Shown here: in pieces, positions 878 through 64,000 of the stretch
Position numbering within the stretch: the first letter of the stretch is position 1
Layout: every line of letters begins with the position of its first letter
IMG/VR virus record: IMGVR_UViG_3300045988_048622
Span: 101,990 to 165,989 of that record
Reading direction: 5' to 3' (one strand)
Origin: a virus
DNA length: 64,000 nt
The notes under the pieces: model-generated
Told to the model about the DNA's origin: nothing
The model's database searches: none
The model's input: only the letters and a program-made list of their open reading frames with translations
Translations under genes and position numbers: made by a program

Positions 878-879
878 AA

Positions 880-43726: not shown

Positions 43727-44044
43727 AATACTAAAAATTTTTAATTTGTTAATACTGTGAGTTACTTTTGTTTTTGTTTTAGTTTTATATCAATATACAG
43801 GGGGGGACTAAAGGGGTTGTGGACCGCCATAACAGTCTCTCATATAATTTTCGGAATCTAGGTAATTTTCACCTGTATATAAATTCCGAATTTATTAAAC
43901 CCCCAGGGGGCTATTTATATAAAGTACCTGTACCCATTTGCGGATAACTAAATGAAATATGTATAATATTAGAATTAGAATTTTTTAACTTTGTATTTAA
44001 CTTTTCAGAAGGTATTGTTGTATATAACTAAAAAAGAAACAATT

Positions 44045-44446
44045 ATGATTACAGACTTAGAAACATTACTAAATTAGGACGAGTTTAAGAATCTCGTTGA
44101 TGCAATTAATAAGAACTAGGAGTATTATCTATCAAGTAATGGTCTAACCATTAAAGCGGAATCTACAGATGATTCTTTATTCTTATTAATATCTTATGAG
44201 AGATAGAAAGAGGAAAGCTGTCTAGCTAATGAAGAAGTAGGCAAATTCCAGAAATACTTAGAATCTTTAGATGATGATTTATTTATAGATGTCTGCGAAT
44301 ATCTAGGGGAATCCGAACTGAATAAAATTCAAGAATGTTTGGAAAGTGGAAAATTGGAATCAGTAAGAGCTGGAATTACTAAATTCAGAATGGCATTATC
44401 TAATGTGGTAACTATGAAAATAGAACAACTGAAAGCATATGTATGA
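44045..44446 (+). CDS. hypothetical protein (TAG read as a sense codon)
   Basis: 133-aa ORF open only if four TAG codons are read through; ends at TGA; first gene of the plus-strand block. Confidence 0.4.
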
Positions 44447-44583
44447 ACAAATAGCTCAAATAAGAATACTCCTTGCTAATGTAAATGCAACCATGTAGGC
44501 TTTATTTCACGAAAACGAACAGCTAAGGAAAGAACTAGAGAAATTGGCAGCGGAGAATAAATCTCTAAAAGAGAAATAAATAC

Positions 44584-44655
44584 TGCCCTATGGTGTAATG
44601 GTCAGCACAGATGACTCTAAATCATTTAGTCTGGGTTCGAATCCTAGTAGGGCAA
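44584..44655 (+). tRNA. amber-suppressor tRNA (anticodon CTA), tRNA-Gln-derived
   Basis: Acceptor TGCCCTA/TAGGGCA, D-arm TGGTGTAATGGT nearly identical to the tRNA-Gln(TTG) at 30391-30462, anticodon stem GATGA/TCATT with loop CTCTAAA (CUA), T-arm CTGGGTTCGAATCCTAG. Confidence 0.75.
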
Positions 44656-44672
44656 CGCCAAAATTAATAGTT

Positions 44673-44900
44673 ATGATAAATTTAAATGAGAATTATGCTG
44701 TAACTCCAACAGGAGCTAAGACCCTTATTATTGAAGAGGGAGATGATTGGAATAAAGTTTGCGATAAGGTAGTTGGATGTAGATTTGATTACATATTTGT
44801 ACCTCAAGAATTTGAGAATCAAGCCTGCTACTTTCTTCCACAAATAAGTATTCAAGGAAAGCAGATAGGTAAGATATGTACTTATAAAGTAGTGAAATGA
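44673..44900 (+). CDS. hypothetical protein
   Basis: ORF-track 44598..44900 trimmed to the first ATG after the tRNA. Confidence 0.35.
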   Translation: MINLNENYAVTPTGAKTLIIEEGDDWNKVCDKVVGCRFDYIFVPQEFENQACYFLPQISIQGKQIGKICTYKVVK

Positions 44901-45211
44901 AACAGTGTGCAGTCGTATTGAATGGTAATGATGTTGTCAAAGTTTCTAATTTAAAAAGAAAGTATGACAAAATAATGAGTAATCCCAATATGAAAATATT
45001 GGAGGAGTGTGATAAGGAAATGCTAGATGAGAAATACAACTACTGGAATAGAACATTAAATAGAAATATAGAAGAGGAGAAAAATGAGGAAGCAAAACTC
45101 CATCATTTTAGGAATCCAAAAACAGGTTGCACTATAGCAAGTATCTATCCAGATTTAGAGGAATGTAAATCATATATAAAAGACTGGATGGATTATGTTA
45201 AACTTGACTGA
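44897..45211 (+). CDS. hypothetical protein
   Basis: 104-aa ORF. Confidence 0.35.
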   Translation: MKQCAVVLNGNDVVKVSNLKRKYDKIMSNPNMKILEECDKEMLDEKYNYWNRTLNRNIEEEKNEEAKLHHFRNPKTGCTIASIYPDLEECKSYIKDWMDYVKLD

Positions 45212-45379
45212 TAAATACAATGAACTAACTAAGCCAAATTTAAAAGAGTTATCTGAAACTATACTCCTAGCAGCAGAATCTTTAATTGAGATTGTTGCAG
45301 AAGAAGGAAAACAAAATGAACAATGGTTTCTAGATTACCTAGATGAATTAAATAGACTAAGTGTAATATACTAAAATAT

Positions 45380-45616
45380 ATGGATAAAGAATTTAAATTT
45401 GAAGTCTTTATTAACGGTCAACTAATAAATATGATAAAAGCCGGATATTTAGAAAGTACACTTAGAAGTGTTCCGGAGAATAAATCATTACTGATTGATA
45501 TATGGAATGTAGTTGACAATTCAGTTAGAAATCTAATTAAAAATGGACTATATAAAGACACTACACTAGAAAAAGCAATAATTGATAATACATTTGAGGG
45601 ATATGATAGACTTTAA
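45380..45616 (+). CDS. hypothetical protein
   Basis: 78-aa ORF. Confidence 0.35.
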   Translation: MDKEFKFEVFINGQLINMIKAGYLESTLRSVPENKSLLIDIWNVVDNSVRNLIKNGLYKDTTLEKAIIDNTFEGYDRL

Positions 45617-45818
45617 AAAGACATTGACAAACTTACATAATGAATTTCCAGAATTTGACTTGGATACATTATTTAAAATAGTAGATGCTATAGTAGAAAC
45701 TTCTACTCCTACAATAACCATCCCAAGTGGTATTAGATAGCCATCAGATAAACCTTGGTGGGAGGATGGTATAAATAGAATCACTTGTACTTATGATACA
45801 AAGTATAATGTTAAATAA
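45603..45818 (+). CDS. hypothetical small protein (one TAG read as a sense codon)
   Basis: ATG at 45603; reading through one TAG extends it to TAA at 45816-45818. Confidence 0.25.
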
Positions 45819-46122
45819 AAATAGGCGAACCTAATCTCTAGGCTCGCCTATTTTGTTATATAATATAGTACCAATCAGTTCTCTCCATGACTCCCTTTTC
45901 TCTAAGCTATTTATTATCTAAATGATAATCTCCGTTTCTGAAATTCAATTCCTTTTTAGAATAATCCCAATAAAAATATCCTCTCCATCCAGGAAGTAAG
46001 AGAGTACGACCTGTTGCCGCGTGTAAAGTTGCTTTGTTATAGTCCATGTTACTTTTTAAATATAAATAGTAAATATAGATATATTCTTAATACAATCTCT
46101 TTAATGCACTTAATAATGTTTT

Positions 46123-46464
46123 TCATCGTTTCTTAGTTTTAATAAATCCATAAGTTCCCTTCTTTAATCTAGTAGTAGGAATCCATCCATTATCTAGAAT
46201 AGACCTATGTCCACTCGGTTTATGTATCTTAGCCCCATCTTCGTGTTTCCATTTAGAAGCATTTCTAGCAAAATTAGCTCGCTTCTTCTAAAGAAGGGTA
46301 GCGTTAGGATTGTTTAGTACATGCTTAGCGTGTTCTTGTACAGATTCTCCTGCTGCCTTGGCAGATGCTGTAAATTTGCCTCTGTTCTTCTCTTTAATGT
46401 GAATGCCCGACCCATTTTTGAAAATTGGACACCCAAATGTTGTAATTTTCTTACTGTTAGACAT
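46123..46464 (-). CDS. hypothetical basic protein (one TAG read as a sense codon)
   Basis: 113-aa minus-strand ORF MSNSKKITTFGCPIFKNG...; a single in-frame TAG joins two fragments, each under 60 aa. Confidence 0.35.
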
Positions 46465-46578
46465 TTTTAATATAATGTATTATTTATTGATTTGTATCTT
46501 ACAAAGAATATTAATATACTTGAAAAGTATCAAATAAATATAGATAAATGTGATAAATGATTAAATGAATTATGACTA

Positions 46579-47493
46579 ATGGACAAAAGTAAAATTACAA
46601 AACAAAATGGGAACATAGCTTTTGAGGAAGAAGCTCATATTTATTATGATGTTACAAAGCCAGAACAGAAGTTTATATCTGTAACGACTTTAATTCATTC
46701 TTTCACCCAACCATTTGATAAGGAGTTCTGGTCAGCATATAAAGCACTAGAGAAACTCTTACCTAAAGAAGATTGGGCTATAGAAAAAAAGTCTTTGTTG
46801 AACACTAAGAAATTTGATAAAGTTCTACTTGAACTTCATAACATTACAGAAGACGAGTTTAATAAAGAGCAACAAACTATCTTAGATGCTTGGGATTTAG
46901 AGAATAGAAACTCATGCGAGAGGGGAACTAAAATCCATGCAGATTTGGAAAACTCTTTCTATAAAAAGAAACAGAACATAGACCTTAGTAAATATCAAAT
47001 AGGTGGCAAGTTCGAGTGTATAAAAGACCACAATGAATTAGACTTAGAGAATGGTGTATATCCTGAGTATTTAATATCTAGAGTATCGGATGATGGAAAG
47101 CTAAGAATAGCAGGACAGATTGACTTATTAGTTAAAAGAGGAAATAAGATAATTATAGGAGACTGGAAGACCAATAAGAAAATAGAAACTAAGAGTTTCT
47201 TCAATTCTAAAACCAAAACTTCTGTTAAGATGAAATATCCTCTAAATAATTTAGATGATGTTAATTACTGGCACTATACTTTACAATTAAGTACTTATGC
47301 TTGGATGATTCAAAAGAAAAATCCAGAGTTTGAAATAGAGGATTTGGTTTTGGTACATTTCGACCATAATGACAATATGACAGTATATCATTTGCCATAT
47401 CTAAAAGATGAGGTTATAAAAATGCTAGCCTTCTATAAGAAGGAATCTATATTGGCAGAAAATAAAAGAAAACGTCAACGTATTGAATATTAA
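46579..47493 (+). CDS. PD-(D/E)XK nuclease (YqaJ/Cas4-like exonuclease fold)
   Basis: Core motif ...GQIDLLVKRGNKIIIGDWKTNKK... (D...D/E-x-K). Confidence 0.5.
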   Translation: MDKSKITKQNGNIAFEEEAHIYYDVTKPEQKFISVTTLIHSFTQPFDKEFWSAYKALEKLLPKEDWAIEKKSLLNTKKFDKVLLELHNITEDEFNKEQQTILDAWDLENRNSCERGTKIHADLENSFYKKKQNIDLSKYQIGGKFECIKDHNELDLENGVYPEYLISRVSDDGKLRIAGQIDLLVKRGNKIIIGDWKTNKKIETKSFFNSKTKTSVKMKYPLNNLDDVNYWHYTLQLSTYAWMIQKKNPEFEIEDLVLVHFDHNDNMTVYHLPYLKDEVIKMLAFYKKESILAENKRKRQRIEY

Positions 47494-47495
47494 TT

Positions 47496-47711
47496 ATGAC
47501 ACTAGAGGAAATAGAAGAAAGATTTGAGATATGTAGACGCTGTCCAATATGTGACCAAGATAATGGATTATGTAATGGGCATTTGTATCTAAATCCAAAG
47601 AATAATGATATAAGTATAAGCCCTAAAGAAGGGTATATAAAGGGATGTGGATGTTTACTAGAGAAGAAGATTCCAAACGAAAAGAAACATTGCCCAGCAG
47701 GGAAATGGTAA
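47496..47711 (+). CDS. small Cys-rich zinc-binding protein
   Basis: CRRCPICDQ...CNGH...GCGC...HCPAGKW. Confidence 0.4.
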   Translation: MTLEEIEERFEICRRCPICDQDNGLCNGHLYLNPKNNDISISPKEGYIKGCGCLLEKKIPNEKKHCPAGKW

Positions 47712-47797
47712 TCTATGGAACTCCTATATTATATAAACCAGATAAGCATTATATACTTACTGTCCAAAATATAAACGAGAAGGAGGAAGAAGATATG

Positions 47798-48028
47798 ATA
47801 TGGAAATGGATTAAAGCAATATTTATTAAACCTTTAACAATATTGAAAAGTATATATTTCAATATATTCGGAATAAATCAAGATTTGACAACCAAAAGAT
47901 TAAAAATTTGTGACGCTTGTTCCCATAAATTACAAACATCTGTTGGGGAAGTGTGCGATGAATGTGGTTGTATATTAGAGAATAAAACAAGAATTGAAGA
48001 TGAACATTGTGATTTATGTAAATGGTAA
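47798..48028 (+). CDS. small Cys-rich zinc-binding protein (paralog of 47496-47711)
   Basis: CDACSH...CDECGC...HCDLCKW; start trimmed from ORF-track 47645 to the in-frame ATG at 47798. Confidence 0.35.
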   Translation: MWKWIKAIFIKPLTILKSIYFNIFGINQDLTTKRLKICDACSHKLQTSVGEVCDECGCILENKTRIEDEHCDLCKW

Positions 48029-48036
48029 AATGAATT

Positions 48037-48639
48037 ATGGAAACTTTAAGAACAGAATTAAACAGTAACGAAAAACTAGCACTATCATTAACTGGAATGG
48101 AAGGTACGGGAGAACATTTTATTTTAAATGGAGAGGCTGCAGACCAAACATTATTAAGAGAAAAACAAGAAAAGTTTAATACCGCAGTAGATGAGTTAGA
48201 AGATAAATTCTCTAAACATAATCAGGCACTAGAGGATTACGCTAAATCATTATCTAACGATATGAATGGAGTTGAAATTATGCCGATGTATGGGTATGCA
48301 TTAATTAAACCCTTTGAACAAAACCCATTCCAAAAAATAAAAACTACTAAAAGCGGTCTTATTACTGATTTAGGTGGATTTACTCCTACTTATAAATCTA
48401 ATGAGACTGGAGAAATTGAAGAAGAGCAACAATTTATTAAGGTAGGAACTGTGATAGAAGTAGGACATAAGTGTGAGTTCTTGAAGCCTGGAGATATTGT
48501 ATTTTATACAATAGCTAGTGAATGTATGGTTCCATTCTATAAACTAGGATTTGTAGTAGTTAATGAGAATAGAATCATGGCTGTAGTTAATGAGAAACTA
48601 ACTGAAAGAAGAGACGAATTGAAGCATGGAAACAATTGA
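48037..48639 (+). CDS. hypothetical protein
   Basis: 200-aa ORF in the standard code. Confidence 0.4.
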   Translation: METLRTELNSNEKLALSLTGMEGTGEHFILNGEAADQTLLREKQEKFNTAVDELEDKFSKHNQALEDYAKSLSNDMNGVEIMPMYGYALIKPFEQNPFQKIKTTKSGLITDLGGFTPTYKSNETGEIEEEQQFIKVGTVIEVGHKCEFLKPGDIVFYTIASECMVPFYKLGFVVVNENRIMAVVNEKLTERRDELKHGNN

Positions 48640-48849
48640 TGAAAAAGTTTATTTTAAGCCTGGGGATTGTGTTACTTTACGGTAGTGTAAAGTAATGCAC
48701 TCTCCAGTTATGCTTGTTCTAAGAAGAGAAGCAGCTTTATTTAAAGATAACCAAGGATTACGAGGACTAAGATGTAGATGGTTTACTGATTCTGGATTAA
48801 TGCAGGAAGCAGTATTTAATACAAAGGATTTAATTAAAGTAGAAGAGTA

Positions 48850-49422
48850 ATGGCTAATTAGGAAGAATTACAGAAAGCATTCATGGCATACTTGATACAA
48901 GATGCCCAAGCACAAGGGATACAACTACAATCAGAGCAAGATTTATAGGCTTACGCTGAGTAGCTTGGAGAAGATGGAATCAAAGCCAAGTATCAAGAAT
49001 TTATGTAGAAGATGCAAGGCGGAGTTATGGCTAGACTTGGAGCTAAACTAGAATACTATAAAAAATTAAAAGGAGTATGCCCAGAAGGAGAGGAACTTGT
49101 TTATTTTAAACAGGGAGGAAGAATCTGCAAAGCTTGCCAAAAAGCATAGAAAGGAACTAAGGTTACTAAGAAAGCTAATGAAGTTGACAAGTTCAAGGCT
49201 GGAAGAGCTTAGTATAAAAAGGATATGAAATCTGCAAAGGATGAAGCATCCAGAGATTCTGTATCTATTAATAAATATAATGACTAGGAGGTCATGGCAA
49301 ATAGAGGACACAAGGGAAACTTTAAAAATGGAAAATGGGTTCCAGATAGAACAAAGTATGCTAAGAAAGATGCTTGTGGTTCTAAAATGAAAGTAAGTAA
49401 ATGCGGTTCTAAAATGAAATAA
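48850..49422 (+). CDS. hypothetical protein (TAG read as a sense codon)
   Basis: 190-aa ORF with nine in-frame TAGs, all in Q-rich context (QDAQAQGIQLQSEQDLQAYAEQL); C-terminal CxxC pairs. Confidence 0.5.
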
Positions 49423-49452
49423 AAAGATTAAAGATGTTAATGTTAATGATTG

Positions 49453-50019
49453 ATGAGTATGAATGTATTTAATTATAACACTTTAACTAAATAGTTAGAA
49501 ATAAATGAACCAGAGCTTCTTCTAGTTAAAGAGTTTAAGGCTTTGATACAGAGAGATAAATCTGTTGACAAGGAACGAGTAACTAGAGAATTATCTTACA
49601 TTTATCTAGCTATTGATTGGAAGAGTCCCTATAGCCAATATTCAGAACATGAAAGACATGATGAAGCTATTAGTGACTCTGGACTATCTGAATCCGAATT
49701 TAATGACCCGTTATTCAGGGAAGCCTGTAGAAAATACCGAGCATTGTAGGATTCTAACAAATCAATAAAACTTCTAGAAGCAGCTAAAAGAGCAGCTGAC
49801 TAGTTTATTGATTATTTTGATACTATAGTAGATTTAAATGAACGTGATAATAATGGCAAACCCGTCTTTCAAGCTGAAAAGGTAATGAAAGAAATGGCTA
49901 CTCTTCATAAAGTTCATGAAGAATTAGTAACACTAGAAGAGCAGGTTAAGAAAGAGCTTACAGAACAATCTACTGTAAGAGGTGGAGCTACAGACGGCTT
50001 TGACCCAGGAGACTTTTAA
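49453..50019 (+). CDS. hypothetical protein directly upstream of TerL (possible small terminase subunit)
   Basis: 188-aa ORF with three TAGs; its position immediately 5' of the large terminase is the only support for a TerS call. Confidence 0.35.
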
Positions 50020-50021
50020 TT

Positions 50022-52382
50022 ATGCCTAGAAAGAAAAAAATATTACCTGAAGAAATCTAGAATATAGTAGATTAGGTAAGAGAGAAAGAACAAAAAGAGG
50101 ATGCCAAAGAAGCTAGAGAACTAGTATAGAAGATAAGAGAGGAAAGAGGCAAAAATGCTGATTATTGGGATGTAAAAAGAGGAGATAAGATAGAGGTATT
50201 TGACCCTACTTTATCTTATGAAATAACTGGATATAGACCAATAGATGAAACACATGGTCTTGATTTCGACCCAGATTGGTTTACTGAGACCAGAGAAGTA
50301 TATAGAAAAACTGGAAAGTATTGTCCATATCTAAAAGATAGTAAGAGATATAATGAGTTTTGGAAGGAATAGTATAGAAGATGTAAATATGGAATGACTG
50401 TTAATGGTTATACAATTACTGGAGATAACTATTTCTTCCTAAACTTCTACTAGCTTCCTATTATTGATGATAACAAGGCATCTGGAGAAGGAACAAGTAG
50501 TGACTTTCCTATATTTTTCGCATCTCATTATATGTTCTTTCATTATCTATAGATGGCTAGAGTTCTGCATAAACACGCAGCTCTTATGAAAGCTCGTTCT
50601 ATTGGATTCTCTGAAATAAATGCATCCTTATCTGCAAGAATGTATTCAGTAATCAGAAGAAGCAGAGTAATGATTACCTGTTTTAATGATACCTTCCTTA
50701 AAGGTACTTTTAGTAAGTTTGATAATGCTTTAACATTCTTGAATACTTGTACAGGAGGAGGATTCTTCAAACTACGTTTGATTGACCAAGACTTAAGAAA
50801 GAAGTCCGGTAAACAGATTAAGGTAAACGGACAGTTTGAGGATGTTGGATTTAAATCGGAAGTAGTTGGAATAAACGGAGCTAAGGCATCTAATATTCGT
50901 GGAGACCGTGTTGACTTATTAATATATGATGAAGCAGGATCTTGGCCTGGACTAGATACTGCTGTAGTGTAGGGACAAGAGCTTTGTGAAGTTCAAGGTA
51001 AACCTCGTGGAACAATGTTATTTGGAGGTACTGGTGGTGATATGGGCGCTCCATTAGCAGGTCTTAAGAAGATATATTATAATCCAAAAGCTTACAAAGT
51101 TCTTCCATTTAGACATAATTATACCCAGGATGGGACTACTATTGAAAGTGGGTTCTTCATTCCATATTTTGTCTAGTCTCTAAATTCAGAATACATGGAC
51201 CATAGAGGTGTATGTAATACAGTAGAATATAAGAAGTATCTATAGGAAGAGCGCGACAATTTATTAGCAGTTCCAGATGACTATCTAAAGAAGTGTGCTG
51301 AACGATGTTGGAATGCAGAAGAAGCATTTAATCTTGAAGGTGTTAACAAGTTCAACAAGATTCTTATTGCGGACCAGTTAGCTAATATAAGACTTAAGAA
51401 AATAGGACCAAGACCAGAATCTGGATACATAGACTATTTCTATAAAAATAATAAACACACCTAGGATAATATAGATGGTTTTAAATGGATTCCTAATATT
51501 AACGGAAAAGTAAAAATACTTGAACATCCTGTATGGTCTGATTTGTATAAAGAGTAGATGGATAAACTTAGATAGGAAGCCGAGGAAAGGGGAGAAGAAT
51601 TTGAATCTCCAGCGTACAAAGAAATGCATGATTTATATGTTGCAGGAATAGACGGTATTGATATAGGAGCTAGTCAAACTTCAAAAGAAACAAGAGATCC
51701 TTCTGATTTCTGTATAACTATAAAAAAAAGAGCATTTGGTCTAAACGAACCGTAGTATGTTGCTATGTATAAAGACAGACCTAATGACATTAGAGAAGCC
51801 TATAAAATAGCTATGTGTTTAGCTAGATACTATAATTGTAGAATAAACATAGAAGCTACCCGTGTAGGTATGATTACCTGGGCTAGAGAAAAGGGTTGTT
51901 TAAACTACTTTATGAAAAGACCTAGAGCTACTCTAACAGACGTCAAGAATGGAACTACTAAATAGTACGGAACACCCGCTACCAAAACTATTATAGAACA
52001 ACATACTGATTTGACAGCAGCCTTTATTGAGGATTTCTGTCATACTATATGGTTTGAAGAAATGTTAGACCAATTTACTGGATATAATGATGAGAATAAA
52101 GGTAAATTCGATATTGTAGCAGCTGTGGGAATGACAGAATTGGCAGACTAGGAATTGTCAGGAAGATAGCCAGTGCTTGTTGAAAAAGAAGTTGAACAAT
52201 TCCAAGATTATGGTTATTATTACGACGAGAGAGGAATCAAAAGATTTGGGGTTATACCAACTTCTAAGACTTTTGAAACTAACATACAAAAAAATGAATA
52301 CGATGACCCATACAGAATTGAAACAAGTGATCCTAGGTTATATGAGAGACTTGTACAAAATGGAATACGTAGGTGGGCTTGA
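50022..52382 (+). CDS. terL: terminase large subunit (TAG read as a sense codon)
   Basis: 786-aa ORF continuous through about 20 in-frame TAGs and ending at TGA; Walker B-like VDLLIYDEAG; C-terminal RNase-H-like nuclease segment (GIDGIDIGASQTSKETRDPSDF); ORF-track fragments 50553.., 51765.. and 52173.. share its frame. Confidence 0.7.
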
Positions 52383-55487: not shown

Positions 55488-55497
55488 TTATTATAAT

Positions 55498-56381: not shown

Positions 56382-57971
56382 ATGATACAGCCTATTTATA
56401 CTTCGGTAAGCAATGCTGATATAAAGCCTTGTGGAAAGAAAGGACATTTAATAAAAAGTGAACCTATACCTCTCCTAAGAAACAACTATCTTGGAGAATA
56501 TAGAACTGAATTAGAAAGAGCTAAGGTTAGAAAGAATCTAGGTATCGCTGATGAGTAGAGTCTTCTTTGGGGAAATATAGAAGGAACTATAGAAGCCTAG
56601 AAAGATTTAGTATAGTACATAGAATAGAAATGGACTTATACTAGTGATGTTGCAGAGAATATCAATACTGTAAAAGATGCCTTAGATTATGCTTTATTCT
56701 TTATAAGTTAGTACGAAGCTAATACAGAAGAAATAGAGGAAATAAAAGTTGATATAAGTAATATCAGAACTTCTATTACTGTACTTAAGGAAGAACTTGA
56801 AGAAGAAATTGAATCTAACAGAACTGGCATAAACAATCTTTCTGAGAAAATAACCTAGATTAATGAGGCAATAGAGGATATTAATGAGTCTATCAAAAAT
56901 ATAGATGTTGACAAAAACATCTAGAATTGGATAACTAATAGTCTAAGAAACTCCAAAACCATAGAAATAAAGGATGATAATACTCTAGAAGTAATTCTAT
57001 CTTAGTAGGAGGATAATGCAATACATCTGATTCAGTAGGAAATTCCTCCAGTAGAGGAGGAAGGAGAACCTTCCACAGTAGTTCTACCTGGAATATATGT
57101 AAAAGACCTGGAACCATCTCTAACAGAGGTAAAGGAAGAAGTTAAGGGAGTATAGGAAGCTTAGAAGAACACTGATTCTAAAGTAGATTCTAATACTGAA
57201 AATATCACAAATATATAGACAAGTTTAGAAACTATAGCTACTTATTAGACGGAACTCCCAGATGATACTACTTCAACAGTAATTGAAGGGACTACAGTAG
57301 AGAAACTTAAGGGCAAGCCCTTTAATGAGATTATTGATACTTTACTATTTCCAACAGTAGTTAGAGATTTAGTATACCCATAGCTTTATTATAGTTTTAC
57401 TTCTCAAATAGTAGAAGTAGGAACTGCTTTATTAACTCCTACACTTACATTTATAAAGAATGATGCTGGAGAAGAAACTGACAGACAAGAAACTATTACT
57501 TATAACAGTTCTCCTGTAGAGTCTGATACATATAATTCTATTGGTACTTATACTCACTCTGGTACAGTGAGTTATGCCGCTGGAGAATATTTGATAAACA
57601 ATAAAGGAGAAGTTACAGATAAGAGAGTAGAAGCTGGTTCTATTTCCGCTACCGCTTAGGTAGTAGCCACATATCCTTGGTATTCTGGTAATACTGATAG
57701 TGTGATTAAATAGGCGCTAGTTCCTTTTGGACAATCGTCTGGAACTATCACATTTTCACTAAGTGGTAAGGCTATTATAAAATTGCCAGGAAGTAACACA
57801 TAGTTAAATTCATTTACCGTAGATGGGGGACTTGGATATTTAAATGTAGACCTAAGTGGTTGGGAAACGTCTACCGAGTAGATAAATGGATTTACTTACA
57901 AGGTATGGACTAAGAAAGATACTTACTCCTCAGCATTGCCACATCAAATTAACTTTATTCTATCACAATAA
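56382..57971 (+). CDS. structural protein with central coiled coil (tail/fibre-like), TAG read as a sense codon
   Basis: 529-aa ORF with about 25 TAGs; heptad-rich centre and beta-rich C-terminus. Confidence 0.45.
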
Positions 57972-59809
57972 TGGCATTTAAATATACAGGTGATGCTACC
58001 TTAGGTGTCGCTTTAACCGTAGAAACTCCGAAGCCTCTCGATAATAGAACAGTCGTTAATAACTTAGACGAACTTTATTCTATTCCAGAGAAGTATGCTT
58101 ATCAAGGTATGACCGTTGCTAACATAGATAACGGAAATATTTATATGCTAATTGATAAGTCTAAGATTAAATACAAGGAAGGATGGAAAGCATCCTATGA
58201 ATCTATCTAGATAATCACCTGTACAGAGGCTGAATATAAAGAATGGTCTGAGAATACTACAGACGATTTTAGGCCCATAGATGAAAGTAAAACGTATCTT
58301 CATGCTGAGACATATTATTATATATATGAGGATAGCTTAGACGATGACTAGTTTTACCTATCCGCAGAATGGGGAAAAAAGATAGAAGAGCAATTAAAAC
58401 AGAAGGCCCTTAATACTACTGTAGTATAGATTAGAACAGACTTAGATAACACTATTGCCAGCCTATCAGATTACGCTACACTGGAAGAATTAACTACTAA
58501 TTATGTCTCTAACGATTCTTTAGCTCTATCCCTGACTAAGTATTATACTAAGGAAGAAACAAACGATATTTTCGTTACTAAAGAAAGCCTTAGAGGAGAG
58601 GGAATGGAAGGAGATGATTTTGTCTTCGTTACAAAGAAAGAATATGAGGAAGATTAGTAGGCTATCCAAGACGAGTTAGATAAAACTCTTAAGGTAGATG
58701 GAGATGGCTCCTTAGAAAGCATCACTGTTGGGTAGATAAAATCTCCTGTGGCGGAGGGAGAGAGCTAGTTAGTAGTAGACGTTAGGTCTGAAGGATTATT
58801 TATAGGTGAAGATTAGATTGCTACTGAATCGGATATTCCGAACTTAGTAACATTAACTGAAGAAGAGTATCTAAAGTTAGTAGAGGAAGGGACGGTAGAA
58901 CCTGATACATATTACTATGTATATGACGTTACAAATGATGCAAAGGTTTATATTACTAAGGAATATTTGGATTAGAATTATCATACTACTAATCAATATC
59001 AGTCCTGGGTTGCTACAAATTATTACTCCAAGAAGTAGATTGATGAAATAGTTCAAGGTTTGCAAAAACTTGGAAACTACGTTACTACAGAAGATATTAA
59101 GGCTTATTATACTATTTAGCAGGTTGATGACAAATTTCTTACTAAGGAAAATGCTCAGTCTACTTATGCTACTCAATAGTCATTATCTGATTTATCAGAT
59201 TAGATAGCCGAAGATTACGTAACAAAAGAAAGTTTAAGGGGAGACTCTCCTGAAACCGGAGATGATGATTTCATATTTGTTACCTAGAAAAAATATCAGG
59301 ATGATTAGGCTGCTGCTGCTAAAGAATTTAGCACTGAGCTTTTGAAATCTACATCAGTAGAAACTTCTGATATTACTATTTAGAAAATTGGAGAAAAAGA
59401 AGTACAATAGGGAACAACTGGAGAACCTTCTGAGGAAACAGGAACTGAGCAAGTTATTGAGAGTTCTGTTAAACTTACCACAGAAGATAACAGGCTATTT
59501 GCTGGAGGCAAGCAAGTTGCTATTACTGAAGAAGTACCAAAACTTGTATGCTTACCACAAGCTGATTATGATGACCTAGTTGAGAATAGTAAGACTGAAG
59601 AAGATACTTATTATTGCACCTATGGAGAAAAAGATTTACAAGATACTGGATATGTTAGAAGCGAATATCTTATAGAGAGATACTACACCAAAGCTGAGGT
59701 AGAAGAACTAATTAGCTAGGCCGTAGCCGAATTGTAGAAAAAGATAGACGCTTTATAGCCAGGTTCTAGTGTAGAGGTAGATGGAGAAAATGAACAATTA
59801 ATATTTTAA
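57971..59809 (+). CDS. structural protein (tail fibre-like), TAG read as a sense codon
   Basis: 612-aa ORF; its start overlaps the upstream stop (taATG); about 30 TAGs; extends ORF-track 57971..58210. Confidence 0.45.
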
Positions 59810-59814
59810 ACAAT

Positions 59815-60027
59815 ATGGGAACAATTTATATTGAAGGACAGTTTAAGAGTTCTGCCAAACCAGTAAAAGTTGTTGGAGGAAGTATAGGAGGAGGCTCTGG
59901 AGTAGACTAGGAAGTTCTCAAGAACTATGCTACTAAAGCAGAATTGTAGAAGGCTGTTGAGGACCTAACTGCTTCCATAGAGGGAATAGATCACGATGTA
60001 GTTGATGAAACTTTAATAATACAATGA
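59815..60027 (+). CDS. small hypothetical protein
   Basis: 70 aa with two TAGs. Confidence 0.3.
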
Positions 60028-60028
60028 T

Positions 60029-61849
60029 ATGGCAGCAATCAAATCTATAAAGGTTGGGGAAACCACATACGATTTAAAAGCTACTTACGATGGTGCTGGA
60101 AATGTTATAGATACGACATATGCCAAAGCTAATGCAATTCCAACTAAAACTTCTTAGTTACAGAATGATAGTGGATATTTGACTGAGCATTAGGATATTA
60201 GTGAATTAGCTACTAAGGGTGAGCTTGAAGGCAAAGTAGATAAGGAGTTAGGAAAGGGACTTTCTGAAGCCAATTATACTAAAACTGAGAAGGAAAAGTT
60301 AAGTACTATAGCTAATAAGGCTAATAATTATGTACACCCAACTACTTCTGGAAATAAACATATTCCATCTGGAGGAGCGTCTGGATAGATGCTAGTTTTC
60401 TCAGCAGATGGTACTGCTGAATGGGCAGATTCAAGTTCTAAGCTAGAAGAGCAATTTACAGCACTAAATAAGGCTTGGGAAGAATTGTAGAAGGCACAAC
60501 AAAAGCTTGATAAGTAGGTTACTGAGCTAAATAGTAATATGGATTTATACTCCTATGGAGTAGAATGGGATGTTACAGTAGCATCTCCGGAACTTACTAG
60601 AATAGGTAATCCTTTGTTGCATAAATCTCTTCCTATTCAGTCAGCGTATAGAGGTTGTGTAGCAAACAATGATGTAGTAAATTACTATCTGTTTCCAGAT
60701 GACTGGTCTTATAAAGAAGACGGCGAAACTCCATCTGCCTTAGATGGAACTGATGGAACAGTAAGAGTTAATACTCCTAAATTTTATGGAAAATCTGGCA
60801 GCGATGGAAACAAAAGATGGGTTAGAACTTCTACTGTCAAAATTGATGATTCATGGGTAGAAATTCCTGAACTATTAATAGATGCATACAGAAGTACAGT
60901 TGATACCACAGTCTCCGCAACTCCAAAAGCTGTATCAGTAGTTAATACTACTACTGCATTTAGAGGTGGAGGAAATAGAGCTAACTACGATGATTATCTA
61001 ACTACAGGATTAGAAACTAAGGATATATTCAGAAGTGATTTAGGAAAGCCTAGAACTAATATTTCTAGAGCTACTATGAGAACTTATGCTACAAATGCAG
61101 GTTCTGAATTGCTATGCTATGAATATTACAAATGGATATTCTACTGGAATTATGTTATTGAATATGCTAATTTTAATTCTTAGGCTGCATATAATGCAGA
61201 GTTAACTGCGGATGGATATCATCAAGGGGGTTTGGGACCTGGAGTTACAGATTGGGCTAACGCAGCTACAAGTTGGTCAGGATATAATGCAACATATCCA
61301 CTTACGCCTTGTGGTTACTGCAATGAATTTGGTAACTTCACTGGAATCAAAGATTTAGTTATTCCAGAGTGTACTGCAACAAACGAAACAGATACAGTAG
61401 CGACTAAGACATTTAAAGTTCCAAGATGGAGAGGTTTTGATAATCCATTTGGAGATATTTGGACAAACCTAGATGGAGTAGTTATTCAAAGAACTGCGGC
61501 AAATGAAATCAGTAGTGTGTATACTACCACAAACAAGGAAGAGTTTACTGACGTAATTGGCAGCAAGACCATAGCAGGATACGAGGTAGCGCAAGATGGA
61601 TACATTAAAGAGTTTGACTTAGGAGAGACAGCAGAGATTATACCATCTTCTTGTACTGGAGCCTCAGCTACAACTTATATATGTGACTACCACTCTTGCA
61701 ATGCTACCTCTACAGAGCTTCGCACGCTGCTGGTGGGCGGCGACGCGAATTCTGGCGGCAGTGCGGGTCTCGGCTTTTTCTATTCTAGCGGTGGCGTCGG
61801 CGATGCCTATTCCAGTGTCGGGTTTAGGACTCTAAATAGAGTATCTTAA
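60029..61849 (+). CDS. DGR target protein 1 (probable receptor-binding/tail-fibre protein with C-terminal lectin-like VR)
   Basis: 606-aa ORF (about 10 TAGs) joining ORF-track 60539..61183 and 61232..61849; its C-terminal 100 nt form VR1. Confidence 0.7.
61727..61825 (+). repeat. DGR variable region VR1
   Basis: Aligns to the TR at a fixed offset of 199 nt; all mismatches fall where the TR has A. Confidence 0.8.
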
Positions 61850-61925
61850 GATAAAATATAGAAAATCGATTTAGATATAAATCGTAGGATATTACTTCTA
61901 AAAACCGTTGATTGGCAAAAAAGAA

Positions 61926-62024
61926 CTGCTAGTAGGCAGCAACGCGAATAATGGCAGCAATGCAGGTCTCAGCTATTTCAATTCTAACAATGACGTCAGC
62001 AATGCCAATTCCAATGTCGAGTTA
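61926..62024 (+). repeat. DGR template repeat (TR)
   Basis: Adenine-rich, non-coding copy of VR1 and VR2 lying between the target gene and the RT. Confidence 0.8.
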
Positions 62025-62163
62025 TTATATATTTAGAACAATTTATTTTATTTTTTTAGTTTGCTAAGTAATATCCTTGCCTCTAGGCAAAAGATAACGT
62101 AGTGTTGAATGAAGGGTGTTAGTAGGTTAATTCTCGAACGCTTCCGATGAAATATATAAAAAA

Positions 62164-63375
62164 TTGAAACGTGTAGGATATTTGCACGAGAAAGTATACG
62201 CTGAAGATAACATCGAACTAGCTGACGATAAAGCTAGAAGAAATAAGTCTATTAGATGTGGAATCAAGCAGCATGATAAGAATAGATTAAAAGAAAATAA
62301 GGAATTATCCGATAAGTTAAGGGATTTGATTTATCAAACCTCTGAATATAGTACCTTTATAATATACGAACCTAAAGAAAGATTAATCTTTAGACTTCCA
62401 TACTATCCAGATAGAATAACTCACCATGCTATAATGAATATTATGGAGCCTATTTGGACTAGTATATTTATAGACCAAACATATTCCTCTATACGAAATA
62501 GAGGTATTCATAAAGTAGAGTATGATTTGTTTAAGGTGTTATAGAAACATCCAGAAGAAACAAAGTATTGCTTGAAAATGGATATAAAAAAATTCTATCC
62601 TTCTATAACTCACGACATTTTATACGAAATGTTATAGAGAAAGATAAAGGATAAAAAACTATTAAAACTGTTGAAAGAAATAATTTATTCAGCGAAGGGA
62701 GTTCCTATTGGAAATTATCTATCACAATTCTTTGCAAATTTATATCTGACATATTTTGACCACTGGGTAAAAGAGGAGTTAAAATGTAAGTACTACTTTC
62801 GATATGCTGACGATATTGTGATTCTTGGTAATGACAAGAATTATTTGAGAAATGTATTAGTATCTATAAAACTATATTTGAAACAGGTTCTTAACCTAGA
62901 GTTGAAGCCTAATTATCAAATATTCCCTGTAGAAAGCAGAGGTATTGATTTCGTAGGCTATAAATTCTATCATACTCATGTTCTACTGAGAAAATCTATA
63001 AAAATGAGGATGTTTAGGCTTATAAATCTATATAAATAGAATAAGATTGATAAAGATGAATTGAATAGAAGAATGAGGTCTTATTTTGGATGGATGAAAT
63101 TTTGCAACTCTAAGAACTTGCTGAGAAAGGTAGAGGAGTTAACTGGATTGAAATTCTCTAACTGGAATGGAAAAGAAGTTAACATATCTAAGTTTTATAA
63201 TAAATATATTCACATTGTAGAGGTTGTTGATTATGACAATCATTTTCGAGTGCATTTCATGTATAACAATAAACCCTACTATTTTAAAAGTAAGAATAGG
63301 AGATTACACTATTCTTTGCTTAGATACAAATTTCCTATAAATTTTAAAATAACACCTTATGTTAGAGCCGAATAG
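62164..63375 (+). CDS. DGR reverse transcriptase (TAG read as a sense codon)
   Basis: Three ORF-track fragments (62164.., 62671.., 63061..) share one frame and are separated only by TAGs. RT motifs present: IIYEPKERLIFRLPYYPDRI, KMDIKKFYPSITHD, GVPIGNYLSQFFANLYL (the DGR-type SQ motif), YFRYADDIVILG (YxDD). Confidence 0.8.
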
Positions 63376-63382
63376 AATACAA

Positions 63383-63748
63383 ATGAACGTTTGTCCTTAG
63401 GTAATTCAAAAACTTGGGAACGGTACTTATTATTATAATTACGATATAAGAGAAGTTGAGGCTGAAGTTGAAATACTAGATGAGAAAAACAGTACTAAAT
63501 TTGAAACTTAGTACAATTTCATCTAGGTTTTACTTAATGGGCAACCTAATTATAAGGATTGCGTAAGAGCTATTATTAGAAGTTTTATAACCATAGATGA
63601 AGAATTTGATTTAATCAACTCGTATAATAGTTATACAAAAAACCTTAGCACAGATTCTTCTATCATAACAGATTATCAAGAATATCTTACTAAATTAATG
63701 GATATTAAAAACAAAGTCAAAAAAGATTTTGGACTTGTGAATAAATAA
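63383..63748 (+). CDS. hypothetical protein downstream of the RT
   Basis: 121 aa with three TAGs; not Avd-like. Confidence 0.3.
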
Positions 63749-63795
63749 TTTAAAATTGTTAAGTATTGTACTTTACAATATTAAAAATCTAATAA

Positions 63796-64000
63796 ATGGA
63801 AAATTACAAAAATTTAAATTTCTCCGCTGAACAAATAAACCAAAAGCTAGCTTGGGTTGGAGATAAGTCTAAGTTAGCAACTACATTATAGGAGACCCCT
63901 GTAAACTAGTTTATGTTTACTAAAGACTAGAAAACTTTAAAAACTATCATAGACGCAAATAACTAGATAATTACCGTAGAGACTAATGATATGATAACAG
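63796..64000 (+). CDS. hypothetical protein, 5' partial (continues past the window)
   Basis: Begins MENYKNLNFSAEQINQKL and is open through TAGs to the window end. Confidence 0.3.

What the first reader, a model, noticed from the sequence alone, without database searches (positions are those of the whole stretch)
44000..64000. TAG stop-codon reassignment across the plus-strand structural block
From about 44,000 to the window end, plus-strand genes (TerL, portal, structural proteins, DGR target, RT) are continuous only if TAG is read as a sense codon. TAA and TGA still terminate them; TerL ends at TGA and the portal at TAA. TAGs sit in glutamine-rich contexts such as QDAQAQGIQLQSEQDLQAYAEQL. 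By contrast the large minus-strand genes of block 1 are open in the standard code. This matches the TAG-to-Gln recoding seen in crAss-like and other gut phages, where late genes depend on a phage suppressor tRNA.
Basis: partly seen in the sequence, partly recalled or inferred. Interest (0 to 1): 0.75.

Follow-up and report, generated by a model that had tools for sequence, protein, structure and literature searches.

The report
TAG-to-glutamine recoding in gut phage
The packaging, portal, tail and reverse-transcriptase genes of this large crAss-like gut phage read the stop codon TAG as glutamine, with two phage suppressor tRNAs next door; this is real but already well described for this phage group.

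Summary
From 48,626 to the window end, every plus-strand gene is open only if TAG is a sense codon. There are 119 in-frame TAG, 0 TAA and 0 TGA in 4,710 codons. ORF coverage is 27% under the standard code and 94% with TAG as sense.

Three corrections apply.
- The dense recoded block starts at about 48.6 kb, not 44 kb. Four plus-strand genes at 44.9-48.6 kb have no TAG, and this holds in every fetched relative that covers them.
- Four homing-endonuclease genes on the minus strand, inside the tRNA array, are also recoded.
- The window carries two tRNA(CUA) genes, at 42,121-42,191 (-) and 44,584-44,656 (+).

TAG means glutamine. In recoded relatives it interchanges with CAA/CAG: Gln is enriched 15.3-fold among aligned partners, and no other residue exceeds 1.4-fold. 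One suppressor closely resembles the phage's own tRNA-Gln(UUG). The other has orthologues with CUG, CUA or UUA anticodons.

The phage is a divergent crAss-like phage; relatives sit on 170-195 kb contigs. This matches the Zeta group of Yutin et al. 2021, where late-gene TAG recoding with suppressor tRNAs is published. TAG-as-Gln in crAss-like phages has also been confirmed by metaproteomics. Verdict: confirmed, interpretation supported, already known.

The parts
48626..64000 (+). Densely TAG-recoded late block, which runs off the window end. Genes with TAG counts: small ORF 48,626-48,850 (1); 48,850-49,422 (7); 49,453-50,019 (3); TerL 50,022-52,382 (16); portal 52,541-54,751 (32); 54,753-55,487 (7); 55,459-56,226 (2); tail-like 56,382-57,971 (19); 57,971-59,809 (20); tail/DGR target 60,029-61,849 (6); RT 62,131-63,438 (4); 63,359-63,748 (3).
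   Evidence: ORF maps, per-gene TAG counts, PHROG matches spanning the TAGs, PDB portal match.
50022..52382 (+). Terminase large subunit: 786 aa, 16 in-frame TAG, stop TGA.
   Evidence: phrog_6681, E = 8.5e-62, covering residues 92-713. Full-length homologues at 75-94% identity. Codon-level TAG<->CAA/CAG interchange.
52541..54751 (+). Portal protein: 736 aa, 32 in-frame TAG (4.3% of codons), stop TAA.
   Evidence: phrog_6547, E = 1.1e-47. PhicrAss001 gp20 (PDB 7QOG), E = 1.1e-11, over residues 329-665.
44584..44656 (+). supB: suppressor tRNA with anticodon CUA, Gln-type. It sits at the head of the plus-strand unit.
   Evidence: ARAGORN; Rfam tRNA 66.3 bits. Its nearest tRNA in the window is tRNA-Gln(UUG), with which it shares U1:A72, G2:C71, the D-arm and A73. 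Present, with compensatory stem changes, in the fetched relatives whose loci reach this position.
42121..42191 (-). supA: second suppressor tRNA with anticodon CUA. It is 71 nt long, with a small D-loop lacking GG.
   Evidence: ARAGORN; Rfam tRNA 43.9 bits. Orthologues carry CUA, UUA or CUG (Gln) anticodons with compensatory stem changes.
42221..42414 (-). RAGATH-14 RNA, about 29 nt upstream of supA on the same strand. Whether it belongs to the recoding system is unknown.
   Evidence: Rfam RF03145, 183.8 bits against a gathering score of 149.1. The same adjacency is seen in most related loci.
44045..44446 (+). Isolated recoded ORF of 133 aa with 3 TAG, function unknown, immediately upstream of supB.
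   Evidence: Orthologues in more than 20 relatives carry 1-4 TAG and no TAA/TGA; those in L002 and L003 have none.
44897..48639 (+). TAG-free plus-strand genes: 104-aa ORF, PD-(D/E)XK exonuclease 46,579-47,493, Zn-ribbon-like protein 47,645-48,028, GroES-like protein 48,037-48,639. Small ORFs lie between them, and one small ORF (45,603-45,818) has a single TAG.
   Evidence: Homologues in relatives show 0 TAG in about 6,300 aligned codons, against 295 TAG in about 10,400 late codons.
182..43726 (-). Early/replication block, compatible with the standard code. It includes DnaB, a Toprim primase, a DEAD/SNF2 helicase, an AAA ATPase, NAMPT, RNase H and a glucosaminidase, plus 19 sense tRNAs. The larger genes have no internal TAG.
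36668..37084 (-). Recoded PD-(D/E)XK (PDDEXK_5) homing-endonuclease-like gene, 4 in-frame TAG.
   Evidence: Pfam PF11645, E = 6.7e-19, over residues 16-126, spanning the TAGs.
38098..38562 (-). Recoded PDDEXK_5 endonuclease gene, 3 in-frame TAG.
   Evidence: Pfam PF11645, E = 2.2e-23, over residues 10-137.
33925..34296 (-). Recoded PDDEXK_5 endonuclease gene, 2 in-frame TAG; its start codon is unclear.
   Evidence: Pfam PF11645, E = 5.5e-10.
25834..26640 (-). Recoded GIY-YIG/NUMOD1 homing-endonuclease gene, 3 in-frame TAG.
   Evidence: Pfam PF01541, E = 1.2e-9, over residues 58-146, spanning two TAGs.
30390..30462 (-). Phage tRNA-Gln(UUG), the closest sense-tRNA relative of supB.

Best explanation
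The window comes from a large crAss-like gut phage; related contigs are 170-195 kb. Its genome is written in two dialects. The leftward replication block, and a short set of rightward genes at 44.9-48.6 kb, contain no internal TAG, so a standard-code host can translate them on entry. The packaging, portal, tail, DGR and reverse-transcriptase genes from 48.6 kb onward use TAG as their commonest glutamine codon (119 TAG against 78 CAA and 32 CAG). TAA and TGA remain stops. The same is true of one small ORF at 44.0 kb and of four homing-endonuclease genes in the tRNA array.

Two phage tRNAs with anticodon CUA flank the divergent early/late junction. Both belong to glutamine-type tRNA lineages. 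They are inferred to be charged by the host GlnRS and to out-compete RF1 at UAG, so TAG-containing genes yield full-length protein only once these tRNAs have accumulated.

Shown here: the TAG-specific loss of stop behaviour; its equivalence to CAA/CAG; the gene-class partition and its conservation in relatives; and the presence, structure and conservation of the two suppressor tRNAs.

Inferred: that the host uses the standard code; that the tRNAs are charged with Gln; the order of expression; and that the purpose is to delay late, structural and selfish genes.
For: Only TAG-as-sense restores ORFs.
- Coverage of 48.6-64 kb is 27% (standard), 93.7% (TAG sense), 29.3% (TGA sense) and 40.4% (TAA sense).
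- Late genes have 0 TAA, 0 TGA and 119 TAG in frame. Off frame the three triplets are similar: 427, 306 and 290.

Family and structure matches run straight across the TAGs.
- TerL matches phrog_6681 over residues 92-713.
- The portal matches phrog_6547 and PDB 7QOG gp20.
- The RT matches phrog_1423, E = 3.8e-113.

Codon-level comparison with recoded relatives points to Gln.
- 86 of the 262 non-TAG residues aligned opposite TAG (both directions, relatives L001 and L002) are Gln. That is a 15.3-fold enrichment; no other residue exceeds 1.4-fold.
- The TAG partner profile fits the Gln profile better than the next best (Lys) by 243 log-likelihood units.
- In the three-relative comparison (L001-L003), window CAG codons pair most often with TAG. 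Tyr, Trp and Leu codons essentially never do.
- There is no +4 nucleotide bias after TAG, so it behaves as an ordinary sense codon.

Suppressor tRNAs.
- supB (CUA) is nearest to the phage tRNA-Gln(UUG). It is conserved with compensatory changes.
- supA orthologues carry CUA (20 loci), UUA (10 loci) or the Gln sense anticodon CUG (1 locus), also with compensatory changes.

The partition is conserved. In about 30 related loci the late genes have 295 TAG, 0 TAA and 0 TGA in about 10,400 aligned codons. Homologues of the four rightward TAG-free genes have 0 TAG in about 6,300 codons.

Precedent.
- Yutin 2021 (PMC7886860) describes Zeta-group crAss-like phages of 145-192 kb. [quoted passage not shown]
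- Borges et al. give the timing model and report a recoded homing endonuclease in an early gene.
- Peters 2022 (PMC9523058) validated TAG = Q in crAss-like phages by metaproteomics.
- RefSeq cr52_1 (Suoliviridae) has 11 TAG in TerL, with a CUA tRNA annotated as tRNA-Gln directly upstream.
Against: Nothing contradicts TAG = Gln. The weak points are the following.
- No protein-level evidence exists for this phage.
- The host and its genetic code are unknown.
- The window encodes no release factor or glutaminyl-tRNA synthetase (Pfam lists), so how RF1 is out-competed is unexplained.
- Distant standard-code TerL homologues are only weakly informative. Gln sits at 2-5 of about 11-16 aligned TAG positions, against a 3.5-4% background.
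- The timing model is not perfectly clean. The promoter-proximal ORF 44,045-44,446 is recoded, although it lies upstream of supB.
- A probable membrane-anchored glucosaminidase (possible endolysin) on the early strand is TAG-free. Borges et al. found lysis genes to be the most strongly recoded.
- supA is missing or degraded in some relatives (L019, L027), so it cannot be essential.
Confidence: 0.9

Rival explanations
1. TAG is read as glutamine, but its main role is not to time late genes. It could be an anti-host or anti-competitor weapon, with suppressor tRNAs causing readthrough of host or rival-phage TAG stops. Or it could be a near-neutral result of low GC content plus capture of a suppressor tRNA.
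For: - Yutin 2021 proposes the anti-defence reading.
- The window is AT-rich (28-41% GC).
- TAG is at most a rare stop in early genes: among the 21 larger early genes, 18 end in TAA and 3 in TGA, and about 5 further candidates end in TAG. This fits Borges' drift-then-capture path.
- The recoded ORF at 44,045 lies upstream of supB.
- The putative endolysin is TAG-free.
Against: The partition by gene class is sharp and conserved across about 30 relatives: 0 TAG in replication genes and in the four rightward genes, against about 2.5% of late codons. Pure drift would not maintain this. Selfish homing endonucleases inside the early block are recoded, which fits delayed expression.
Confidence: 0.3
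2. TAG encodes some other amino acid: pyrrolysine (ARAGORN's label), or lysine, glutamate, tyrosine, leucine, serine or tryptophan from a differently charged suppressor.
For: - ARAGORN labels both tRNAs 'Pyl' simply because of the CUA anticodon.
- supA is not obviously Gln-like by overall similarity; Arg and Lys tRNAs score highest.
- U1:A72 also occurs in the phage Lys and Asn tRNAs.
Against: - Gln is enriched 15.3-fold among partners of TAG. Lys is at 1.41-fold and Glu at 1.34-fold, and Tyr, Trp and Leu are near zero.
- A supA orthologue carries the Gln anticodon CUG.
- No Pyl genes or PylRS-like Pfam hits appear in the gene lists.
- Metaproteomics in related phages found Q (PMC9523058).
Confidence: 0.03
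3. The TAGs are real stops: the block is made of pseudogenes, or the TAGs are assembly or sequencing errors, or the genes are expressed by context-dependent programmed readthrough rather than by reassignment.
For: Under table 11 the genes are fragmented.
Against: - 119 TAG against 0 TAA/TGA in frame, while off-frame counts are similar.
- The proteins are full length and conserved at 75-94% identity on many independent assemblies, each with its own set of TAG positions.
- There is no +4 context signal.
- 32 TAG in one essential gene cannot be leaky readthrough.
Confidence: 0.01
4. The host itself uses a TAG-sense code, so the phage simply mirrors its host and no code switch happens during infection.
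For: The host is unknown, so this was not tested directly.
Against: About 6,300 codons of early genes avoid in-frame TAG completely, while TAG is common off frame (319 of 12,596). A few early genes appear to end at TAG with a TAA/TGA backup 0-8 codons later. The phage also carries its own suppressor tRNAs. Borges et al. report that such phages infect standard-code hosts, including as prophages.
Confidence: 0.03

Closest known systems
Zeta-group crAss-like phages with TAG->Gln late-gene recoding (Yutin et al. 2021, Nat Commun, PMC7886860)
   Same: - Human-gut phage, with relatives on 170-195 kb contigs (the Zeta range is 145-192 kb).
- TerL and portal only distantly related to other crAss-like phages.
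- Replication block with DnaG-type primase, DnaB, SNF2/DEAD helicase and AAA ATPase.
- Many tRNAs, including suppressors.
- Reassignment confined to late genes.
- Many endonuclease insertions, and an intein in the TerL of one relative (P0003).
   Different: Placement in the Zeta clade was not tested by phylogeny here. The window has no split genes or introns in TerL or the portal. The paper's main text does not describe the details found here: two distinct suppressor genes flanking the early/late junction, supA anticodons switching among CUG, CUA and UUA, and RAGATH-14 next to supA. Its supplement could not be read.
Stop-codon recoding as a regulator of late/lytic genes (Borges et al., bioRxiv 10.1101/2021.08.26.457843); genetic code 15
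   Same: Standard-code replication genes, alternatively coded structural genes as one contiguous unit, phage suppressor tRNA(CUA), TAG preferred over CAA/CAG in some late genes, and homing endonucleases recoded inside an early region.
   Different: The window has no RF2 or aaRS 'code-change module'. The only lysis-type enzyme seen here (a glucosaminidase) is TAG-free, whereas that study found lysis genes the most strongly recoded.
CrAssphage cr52_1 (NC_055888, Suoliviridae, Buchavirus copri)
   Same: TerL (11 TAG) and portal (10 TAG) are recoded. A tRNA with anticodon CUA, annotated tRNA-Gln, lies just upstream of TerL. Its acceptor end resembles supB (TGCCCTAT...).
   Different: Only 28.6% TerL identity. 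Its genome is 104 kb. Its suppressor lies directly before TerL, rather than 5.4 kb upstream behind a set of TAG-free genes.
Classical E. coli amber suppressor supE (tRNA-Gln CUA), and GlnRS mischarging of CUA-anticodon tRNAs (my own knowledge, not checked here)
   Same: A Gln-type tRNA with a CUA anticodon inserts Gln at UAG in competition with RF1.
   Different: In the phage this is a fixed, genome-wide coding strategy with TAG at about 2.5% of late codons. It is not a leaky suppressor of rare mutations.

Membership tests
Phage TAG->Gln stop-codon reassignment (code 15 type) | In-frame TAG in conserved essential genes, while TAA and TGA still terminate | tested here: met
   119 TAG, 0 TAA and 0 TGA in 4,710 late codons. 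All 11 late genes end in TAA (10) or TGA (1).
Phage TAG->Gln stop-codon reassignment (code 15 type) | TAG positions correspond to glutamine in homologues | tested here: met
   Codon-level partners of TAG include 86 Gln of 262, a 15.3-fold enrichment. The Gln profile is the best fit by 243 log units. Raw TAG<->CAA/CAG interchange is seen. Distant standard-code homologues give only weak support.
Phage TAG->Gln stop-codon reassignment (code 15 type) | Phage-encoded suppressor tRNA with anticodon CUA | tested here: met
   Two genes, at 42,121-42,191 (-) and 44,584-44,656 (+), found by ARAGORN and Rfam. Both form cloverleaves and are conserved with compensatory changes.
Phage TAG->Gln stop-codon reassignment (code 15 type) | Recoding concentrated in late/structural genes, with replication genes compatible with the standard code | tested here: met
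   Early genes have at most 2 TAG in 6,319 codons; late genes have 119 in 4,710. Exceptions: four recoded homing endonucleases in the early block and four TAG-free genes on the late strand.
Phage TAG->Gln stop-codon reassignment (code 15 type) | Gln actually inserted at TAG in the proteins | not testable with these tools
   This needs proteomics. It has been done for other crAss-like phages (PMC9523058).
Phage TAG->Gln stop-codon reassignment (code 15 type) | Host uses the standard code | not testable with these tools
   The host is unknown. Indirect support comes from TAG-free early genes and from a few early genes that end at TAG with a nearby TAA/TGA backup.
crAss-like phages (Crassvirales in the broad sense; Zeta group of Yutin 2021) | TerL and portal homologous to those of crAss-like phages | tested here: met
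   TerL hits Crassvirales records at 26-29% identity and phrog_6681. The portal hits PhicrAss001 gp20 (7QOG), E = 1.1e-11.
crAss-like phages (Crassvirales in the broad sense; Zeta group of Yutin 2021) | Replication block with DnaG-family primase, DnaB and SNF2 helicases, and an AAA+ ATPase | tested here: met
   Pfam hits on contigs carrying the window's identical proteins: Toprim_2 (weak), DnaB_C, ResIII/Helicase_C and AAA_24 (weak).
crAss-like phages (Crassvirales in the broad sense; Zeta group of Yutin 2021) | Genome size of 145-192 kb and phylogenetic placement in the Zeta clade | tested here: inconclusive
   Relatives with 75-94% identical TerL lie on contigs of 160-196 kb, and related IMG/VR contigs are 94-282 kb. 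No tree with Zeta reference genomes was built.
crAss-like phages (Crassvirales in the broad sense; Zeta group of Yutin 2021) | Giant multidomain RNAP genes and signature structural genes (IHF, gene75 and others) | not tested
   These lie outside this 64 kb window.
Pyrrolysine decoding of UAG | A pylT-type tRNA together with pylS and pylBCD genes | tested here: not met
   No such Pfam families appear in the gene lists. supB is a tRNA-Gln look-alike, and the partners of TAG are Gln. 'Pyl' is only ARAGORN's default label for a CUA anticodon.

The most novel reading that the evidence does not exclude
The second suppressor, supA, may be a regulated code-switch module. In this lineage it almost always lies about 30 nt downstream of the uncharacterised structured RNA RAGATH-14, separated by a conserved hairpin. 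Its anticodon changes among CUG (Gln sense), CUA (amber) and UUA (ochre type) between very close relatives, while TAA is never reassigned. RAGATH-14 could control the production or processing of this tRNA. If so, the lineage would show a sense tRNA being converted to a stop-reading tRNA, coupled to an RNA regulator of genetic-code change.
Probability: 0.12. Interest if true: 0.6.

Novelty: already known. Interest (0 to 1): 0.22.

Why it matters
In practice, this window and its relatives must be annotated with TAG as a sense codon (table 15), or about two thirds of the late region is lost. The gene callers behind the public protein collection already do this for these contigs.

Biologically, it is one more clean example that a phage can run two genetic codes in one genome, apparently to gate late and selfish genes behind its own suppressor tRNAs. 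It adds no new principle.

The small additions are leads for anyone studying how the code switch is carried out:
- a sharp, conserved partition by gene class rather than by strand;
- recoded homing endonucleases inside the early block;
- two independent Gln-type suppressors at the early/late junction;
- one suppressor whose anticodon changes among CUG, CUA and UUA, next to RAGATH-14.

Tried and rejected
- Megablast of 48-64 kb against the phage collection found nothing. Identification therefore relied on protein searches.
- The protein-level tally opposite TAG in the 120 closest TerL homologues gave 75% Q. I rejected it as circular: those homologues come from recoded contigs translated with TAG = Q ('translates_to_query: no'). 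I replaced it with codon-level comparisons.
- Distant standard-code TerLs (Azobacteroides phage, MT835470) were aligned. At 26-45% identity the TAG positions are variable, so the Gln enrichment is only weak.
- The sigma-70 promoter scan around the junction was at chance level (31 found against 33.7 expected), and the terminator hits were not informative.
- The +4 nucleotide context after TAG showed no bias. This argues against context-dependent readthrough.
The late region of the UUA-carrying contig L005 therefore could not be fetched; other UUA loci (for example L013) were used instead.
- TAA reassignment in genomes with supA(UUA) was rejected: 0 in-frame TAA in 1,691 late codons.
- Literature on RAGATH-14: no paper in the library names it. 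The discovery paper's main text does not mention it, and its supplements are not held.
- An Rfam E-value scan of 41.3-46.6 kb found nothing beyond RAGATH-14 and the two tRNAs.
- A radical-SAM-like ORF (38,793-39,752) was considered as a possible tRNA-modification enzyme. The Pfam hit is below threshold (19.2 bits against a 29.5 cut-off), so it was not pursued.

Full report
**Observation**

The window splits into two blocks. A minus-strand block runs from 1 to about 43.7 kb, and a plus-strand block from about 44 kb to the end. GC and AT skew flip sign at about 44 kb.

Only reading TAG as sense restores long ORFs in the right-hand block.
- ORFs of at least 150 aa cover 16.8% of 44-64 kb under the standard code and 79.5% with TAG as sense. 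Making TGA or TAA sense gives only 20.2% and 36.4%.
- On the coding strand of 48,621-64,000, ORFs of at least 100 codons cover 27%, 93.7%, 29.3% and 40.4% respectively.
- The 11 late genes contain 119 TAG, 0 TAA and 0 TGA in 4,710 in-frame codons. In the two other frames the three triplets are about equally common (427 TAA, 306 TGA, 290 TAG of 9,398).
- The larger minus-strand genes have at most 2 TAG in 6,319 codons, although TAG is common off frame (319 of 12,596). Fisher p = 1e-41.

TerL (50,022-52,382) has 16 TAG and ends in TGA. The portal (52,541-54,751) has 32 TAG and ends in TAA. The quoted Q-rich peptide lies in ORF 48,850-49,422. The DGR target has 6 TAG and the RT has 4.

**Corrections to the observation**

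Recoding does not start at 44 kb and does not follow the strand.
- Four plus-strand genes have no TAG: 44,897-45,211, the PD-(D/E)XK exonuclease 46,579-47,493, 47,645-48,028, and the GroES-like gene 48,037-48,639.
- The dense recoded block begins with a small ORF at 48,626. One isolated recoded ORF (44,045-44,446, 3 TAG) lies just upstream of a tRNA.
- Four homing-endonuclease-like genes on the minus strand, inside the tRNA array, carry in-frame TAG beneath significant Pfam matches. Three are PDDEXK_5 genes (36,668-37,084, 38,098-38,562 and 33,925-34,296). One is a GIY-YIG/NUMOD1 gene (25,834-26,640).
- About five early genes have TAG as their last or near-last codon, with TAA or TGA 0-8 codons later. 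Either code then gives almost the same protein.

**Gene identities**

PHROG and Pfam matches run uninterrupted across the TAGs.
- TerL matches phrog_6681, E = 8.5e-62, over residues 92-713.
- The portal matches phrog_6547, E = 1.1e-47.
- The tail/DGR target matches phrog_5302, E = 3.5e-82.
- The RT matches phrog_1423, E = 3.8e-113.
- The portal also aligns to the solved PhicrAss001 portal gp20 (PDB 7QOG), E = 1.1e-11, over residues 329-665, a stretch that contains many TAGs.

None of the TAGs coincides with a homologue's C-terminus.

**Which amino acid**

The 120 best TerL homologues (75-94% identity) show Q at 75% of the window's TAG positions. This tally is circular. Those proteins come from contigs that are themselves recoded and were translated with TAG = Q.

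I therefore compared codons directly.
- Across orthologous late genes of three relatives (L001-L003), the window's TAG codons align with TAG (104), CAA (62) and CAG (9). The next commonest partners are GAA and ACT (13 each).
- The window's CAG codons align most often with TAG.
- Tyr, Trp and Leu codons almost never align with TAG, although they are single mutations away from it.
- Among the non-TAG residues aligned opposite TAG (both directions, relatives L001 and L002), Gln is enriched 15.3-fold over background. The next are Lys at 1.41 and Glu at 1.34.
- The TAG partner profile fits the Gln substitution profile better than any other amino acid's, by 243 log-likelihood units.
- Distant standard-code TerLs (Azobacteroides phage and MT835470, both with 0 TAG) show only a modest Gln excess, because these positions vary at 26-45% identity.
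- TAG shows no +4 nucleotide bias compared with other codons.

In late genes TAG is the majority Gln codon: 119 TAG, 78 CAA and 32 CAG.

**Suppressor tRNAs**

ARAGORN finds 21 tRNAs. Nineteen are sense tRNAs on the minus strand. Two have anticodon CUA and flank the divergent junction: supA at 42,121-42,191 (-) and supB at 44,584-44,656 (+). Rfam confirms both.

*supB.* It is closest to the phage's tRNA-Gln(UUG). The two share U1:A72, G2:C71, an almost identical D-arm and A73. supB is conserved in relatives, with compensatory changes in the acceptor and anticodon stems.

*supA.* It is a different, shorter tRNA with a small D-loop.
- In 36 related IMG/VR loci found through two RAGATH-14 motifs, 33 could be evaluated. 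In 31 of these the tRNA at this position has a stop or Gln anticodon.
- The anticodon is CUA in 20 loci, UUA in 10 and CUG (Gln sense) in one (L043). L043 also has a compensatory change in the acceptor stem.
- One further locus has an aberrant anticodon loop. L019 has a truncated remnant, and L027 has lost the tRNA.
- The CUG allele places supA in a Gln-type lineage as well.
- Genomes with the UUA allele still have supB(CUA). Their late genes show 42 TAG, 0 TAA and 0 TGA in 1,691 aligned codons, so TAA is not reassigned there.

**Conservation of the partition**

Across the related loci, homologues of the late genes carry 295 TAG, 0 TAA and 0 TGA in about 10,400 aligned codons. Homologues of the four TAG-free plus-strand genes carry 0 TAG in about 6,300 codons. 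The division into TAG-free and TAG-using genes is therefore maintained by selection. It is not an accident of this genome.

**What the phage is**

- There is no nucleotide match in the phage collection.
- TerL hits two unannotated human-gut phage records at 42-45% identity, and Crassvirales TerLs at 26-29%.
- Near-identical DNA exists in NCBI assembly GCA_900527105.1 (UMGZ01077925.1). Relatives sit on 160-196 kb contigs.
- The early block encodes DnaB, a Toprim primase, a DEAD/SNF2 helicase, an AAA ATPase, NAMPT, RNase H and a glucosaminidase.
- This matches the Zeta group of crAss-like phages in Yutin et al. 2021 (PMC7886860). That group has genomes of 145-192 kb, and different branches use TAG->Gln, TGA->Trp or the standard code. 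[quoted passage not shown] The genomes also carry multiple tRNAs including suppressors, and exceptional numbers of endonuclease-bearing introns and inteins.
- I did not build a tree, so Zeta membership is likely but not shown.
- The RefSeq Suoliviridae phage cr52_1 shows the same design. It has 11 TAG in TerL, with a CUA tRNA annotated tRNA-Gln directly upstream.

**Mechanism**

The best-supported account is the published one (Borges et al., bioRxiv 10.1101/2021.08.26.457843). A standard-code host translates the TAG-free genes on entry. The phage suppressor tRNAs accumulate and are charged with Gln by the host GlnRS. TAG-containing late genes, and here the homing endonucleases, then yield full-length protein.

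Shown here: the codon usage, the Gln equivalence, the conserved partition, and the tRNAs. Inferred: the host's code, the charging of the tRNAs, the order of expression, and the adaptive purpose.

Points that do not fit neatly:
- The promoter-proximal ORF at 44,045 is recoded, although it precedes supB.
- The only lysis-type enzyme in the window is a TAG-free, membrane-anchored glucosaminidase.
- The window encodes no release factor or GlnRS.
- supA is dispensable in some relatives.

An anti-host or drift explanation for why the code changed remains a live rival. It does not alter what the feature is.

**Rivals for what the feature is**

- Pyrrolysine or another amino acid is excluded by the partner profile, the Gln-type tRNAs and the absence of Pyl genes.
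- Pseudogenes, errors or leaky readthrough are excluded by the specificity for TAG, by conservation across many independent assemblies, and by 32 TAG in one essential gene.
- A TAG-sense host is unlikely, because the early genes avoid TAG completely.

**Verdict**

The phenomenon is already known for this phage group and has been validated by metaproteomics in other crAss-like phages (Peters et al. 2022, PMC9523058). Public gene calls for these contigs already use TAG as sense.

The minor leads worth recording are the RAGATH-14-supA unit and supA's anticodon switching among CUG, CUA and UUA.

Noticed in passing
window 42221-42414 (-), next to 42121-42191 (-); also L005 2096-2399, L006 315-578, and IMG/VR loci L012-L047: RAGATH-14 RNA (RF03145, 183.8 bits), whose function I believe is uncharacterised, lies about 29 nt upstream of suppressor tRNA supA on the same strand. 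A conserved hairpin (CTATCTT...AAGATAG) separates them. In 31 of 33 evaluable related IMG/VR loci the next gene downstream is this tRNA. L027 keeps RAGATH-14 but has lost the tRNA, and L019 keeps only a remnant. L044, from a different lineage, has a RAGATH-14-like sequence with no adjacent tRNA. The adjacency may be mere synteny within one phage lineage.
   Followed up: partly
L005 2329-2399; L013, L014, L022, L023, L025, L026, L031, L035, L037, L038 (UUA); L043 11530-11600 (CUG): The supA orthologue changes anticodon between very close relatives: CUA, UUA (ochre type) and CUG (Gln sense), with compensatory stem changes. Genomes with UUA show no in-frame TAA in late genes (0 of 1,691 codons). 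What a UUA-anticodon tRNA does there, given that most genes end in TAA, is unexplained.
   Followed up: partly
window 61727-61824 (VR), 61926-62023 (TR), RT 62131-63438: A diversity-generating retroelement. A 98-nt variable repeat at the C-terminus of the tail/target gene and a template repeat 199 nt downstream are 79% identical. The mismatches are at template adenines. Both the target and the RT are TAG-recoded.
   Followed up: partly
window 25834-26640, 33925-34296, 36668-37084, 38098-38562 (all -): Four homing-endonuclease-like genes (one GIY-YIG, three PDDEXK_5) are interspersed among the tRNA genes. All four are TAG-recoded, unlike their non-selfish neighbours.
   Followed up: yes
window 8863-9690, 16344-16679, 21311-21742, 23012-23467, 23903-24610 (all -): Early-block genes in which TAG is the last or near-last codon, followed by TAA or TGA 0-8 codons later (for example TAG-TAA and TAG-TGA in tandem). 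These look like stops that work under either code.
   Followed up: partly
window 41796-43033: A stretch of about 1.2 kb with no convincing ORF at the start of the leftward block. It contains supA and RAGATH-14. An Rfam E-value scan found nothing else there.
   Followed up: partly
window 38793-39752 (-): A 319-aa protein with a CxxxCxxC motif and a sub-threshold Radical_SAM hit (19.2 bits against a 29.5 cut-off), sitting among the tRNA genes. It could be an RNA- or tRNA-modifying enzyme.
   Followed up: no
window 21579-22073 (-): A glucosaminidase (PF01832, E = 4.5e-15) with an N-terminal hydrophobic segment. It is a possible membrane-anchored endolysin, but it lies on the early strand and is TAG-free.
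   Followed up: partly
P0003 (TerL relative, 1131 aa); L005 21247-21809: One close TerL relative carries Hint/intein and LAGLIDADG-type Pfam domains, indicating an intein in TerL. Relative L005 has a tmRNA-like Rfam hit (70.2 bits) that the window lacks.
   Followed up: no
window 24631-24686 and 24905-24977 (-): Two further tRNA-like Rfam hits (30.2 and 39.5 bits) that ARAGORN did not report. They may be degenerate or unusual tRNAs.
   Followed up: no
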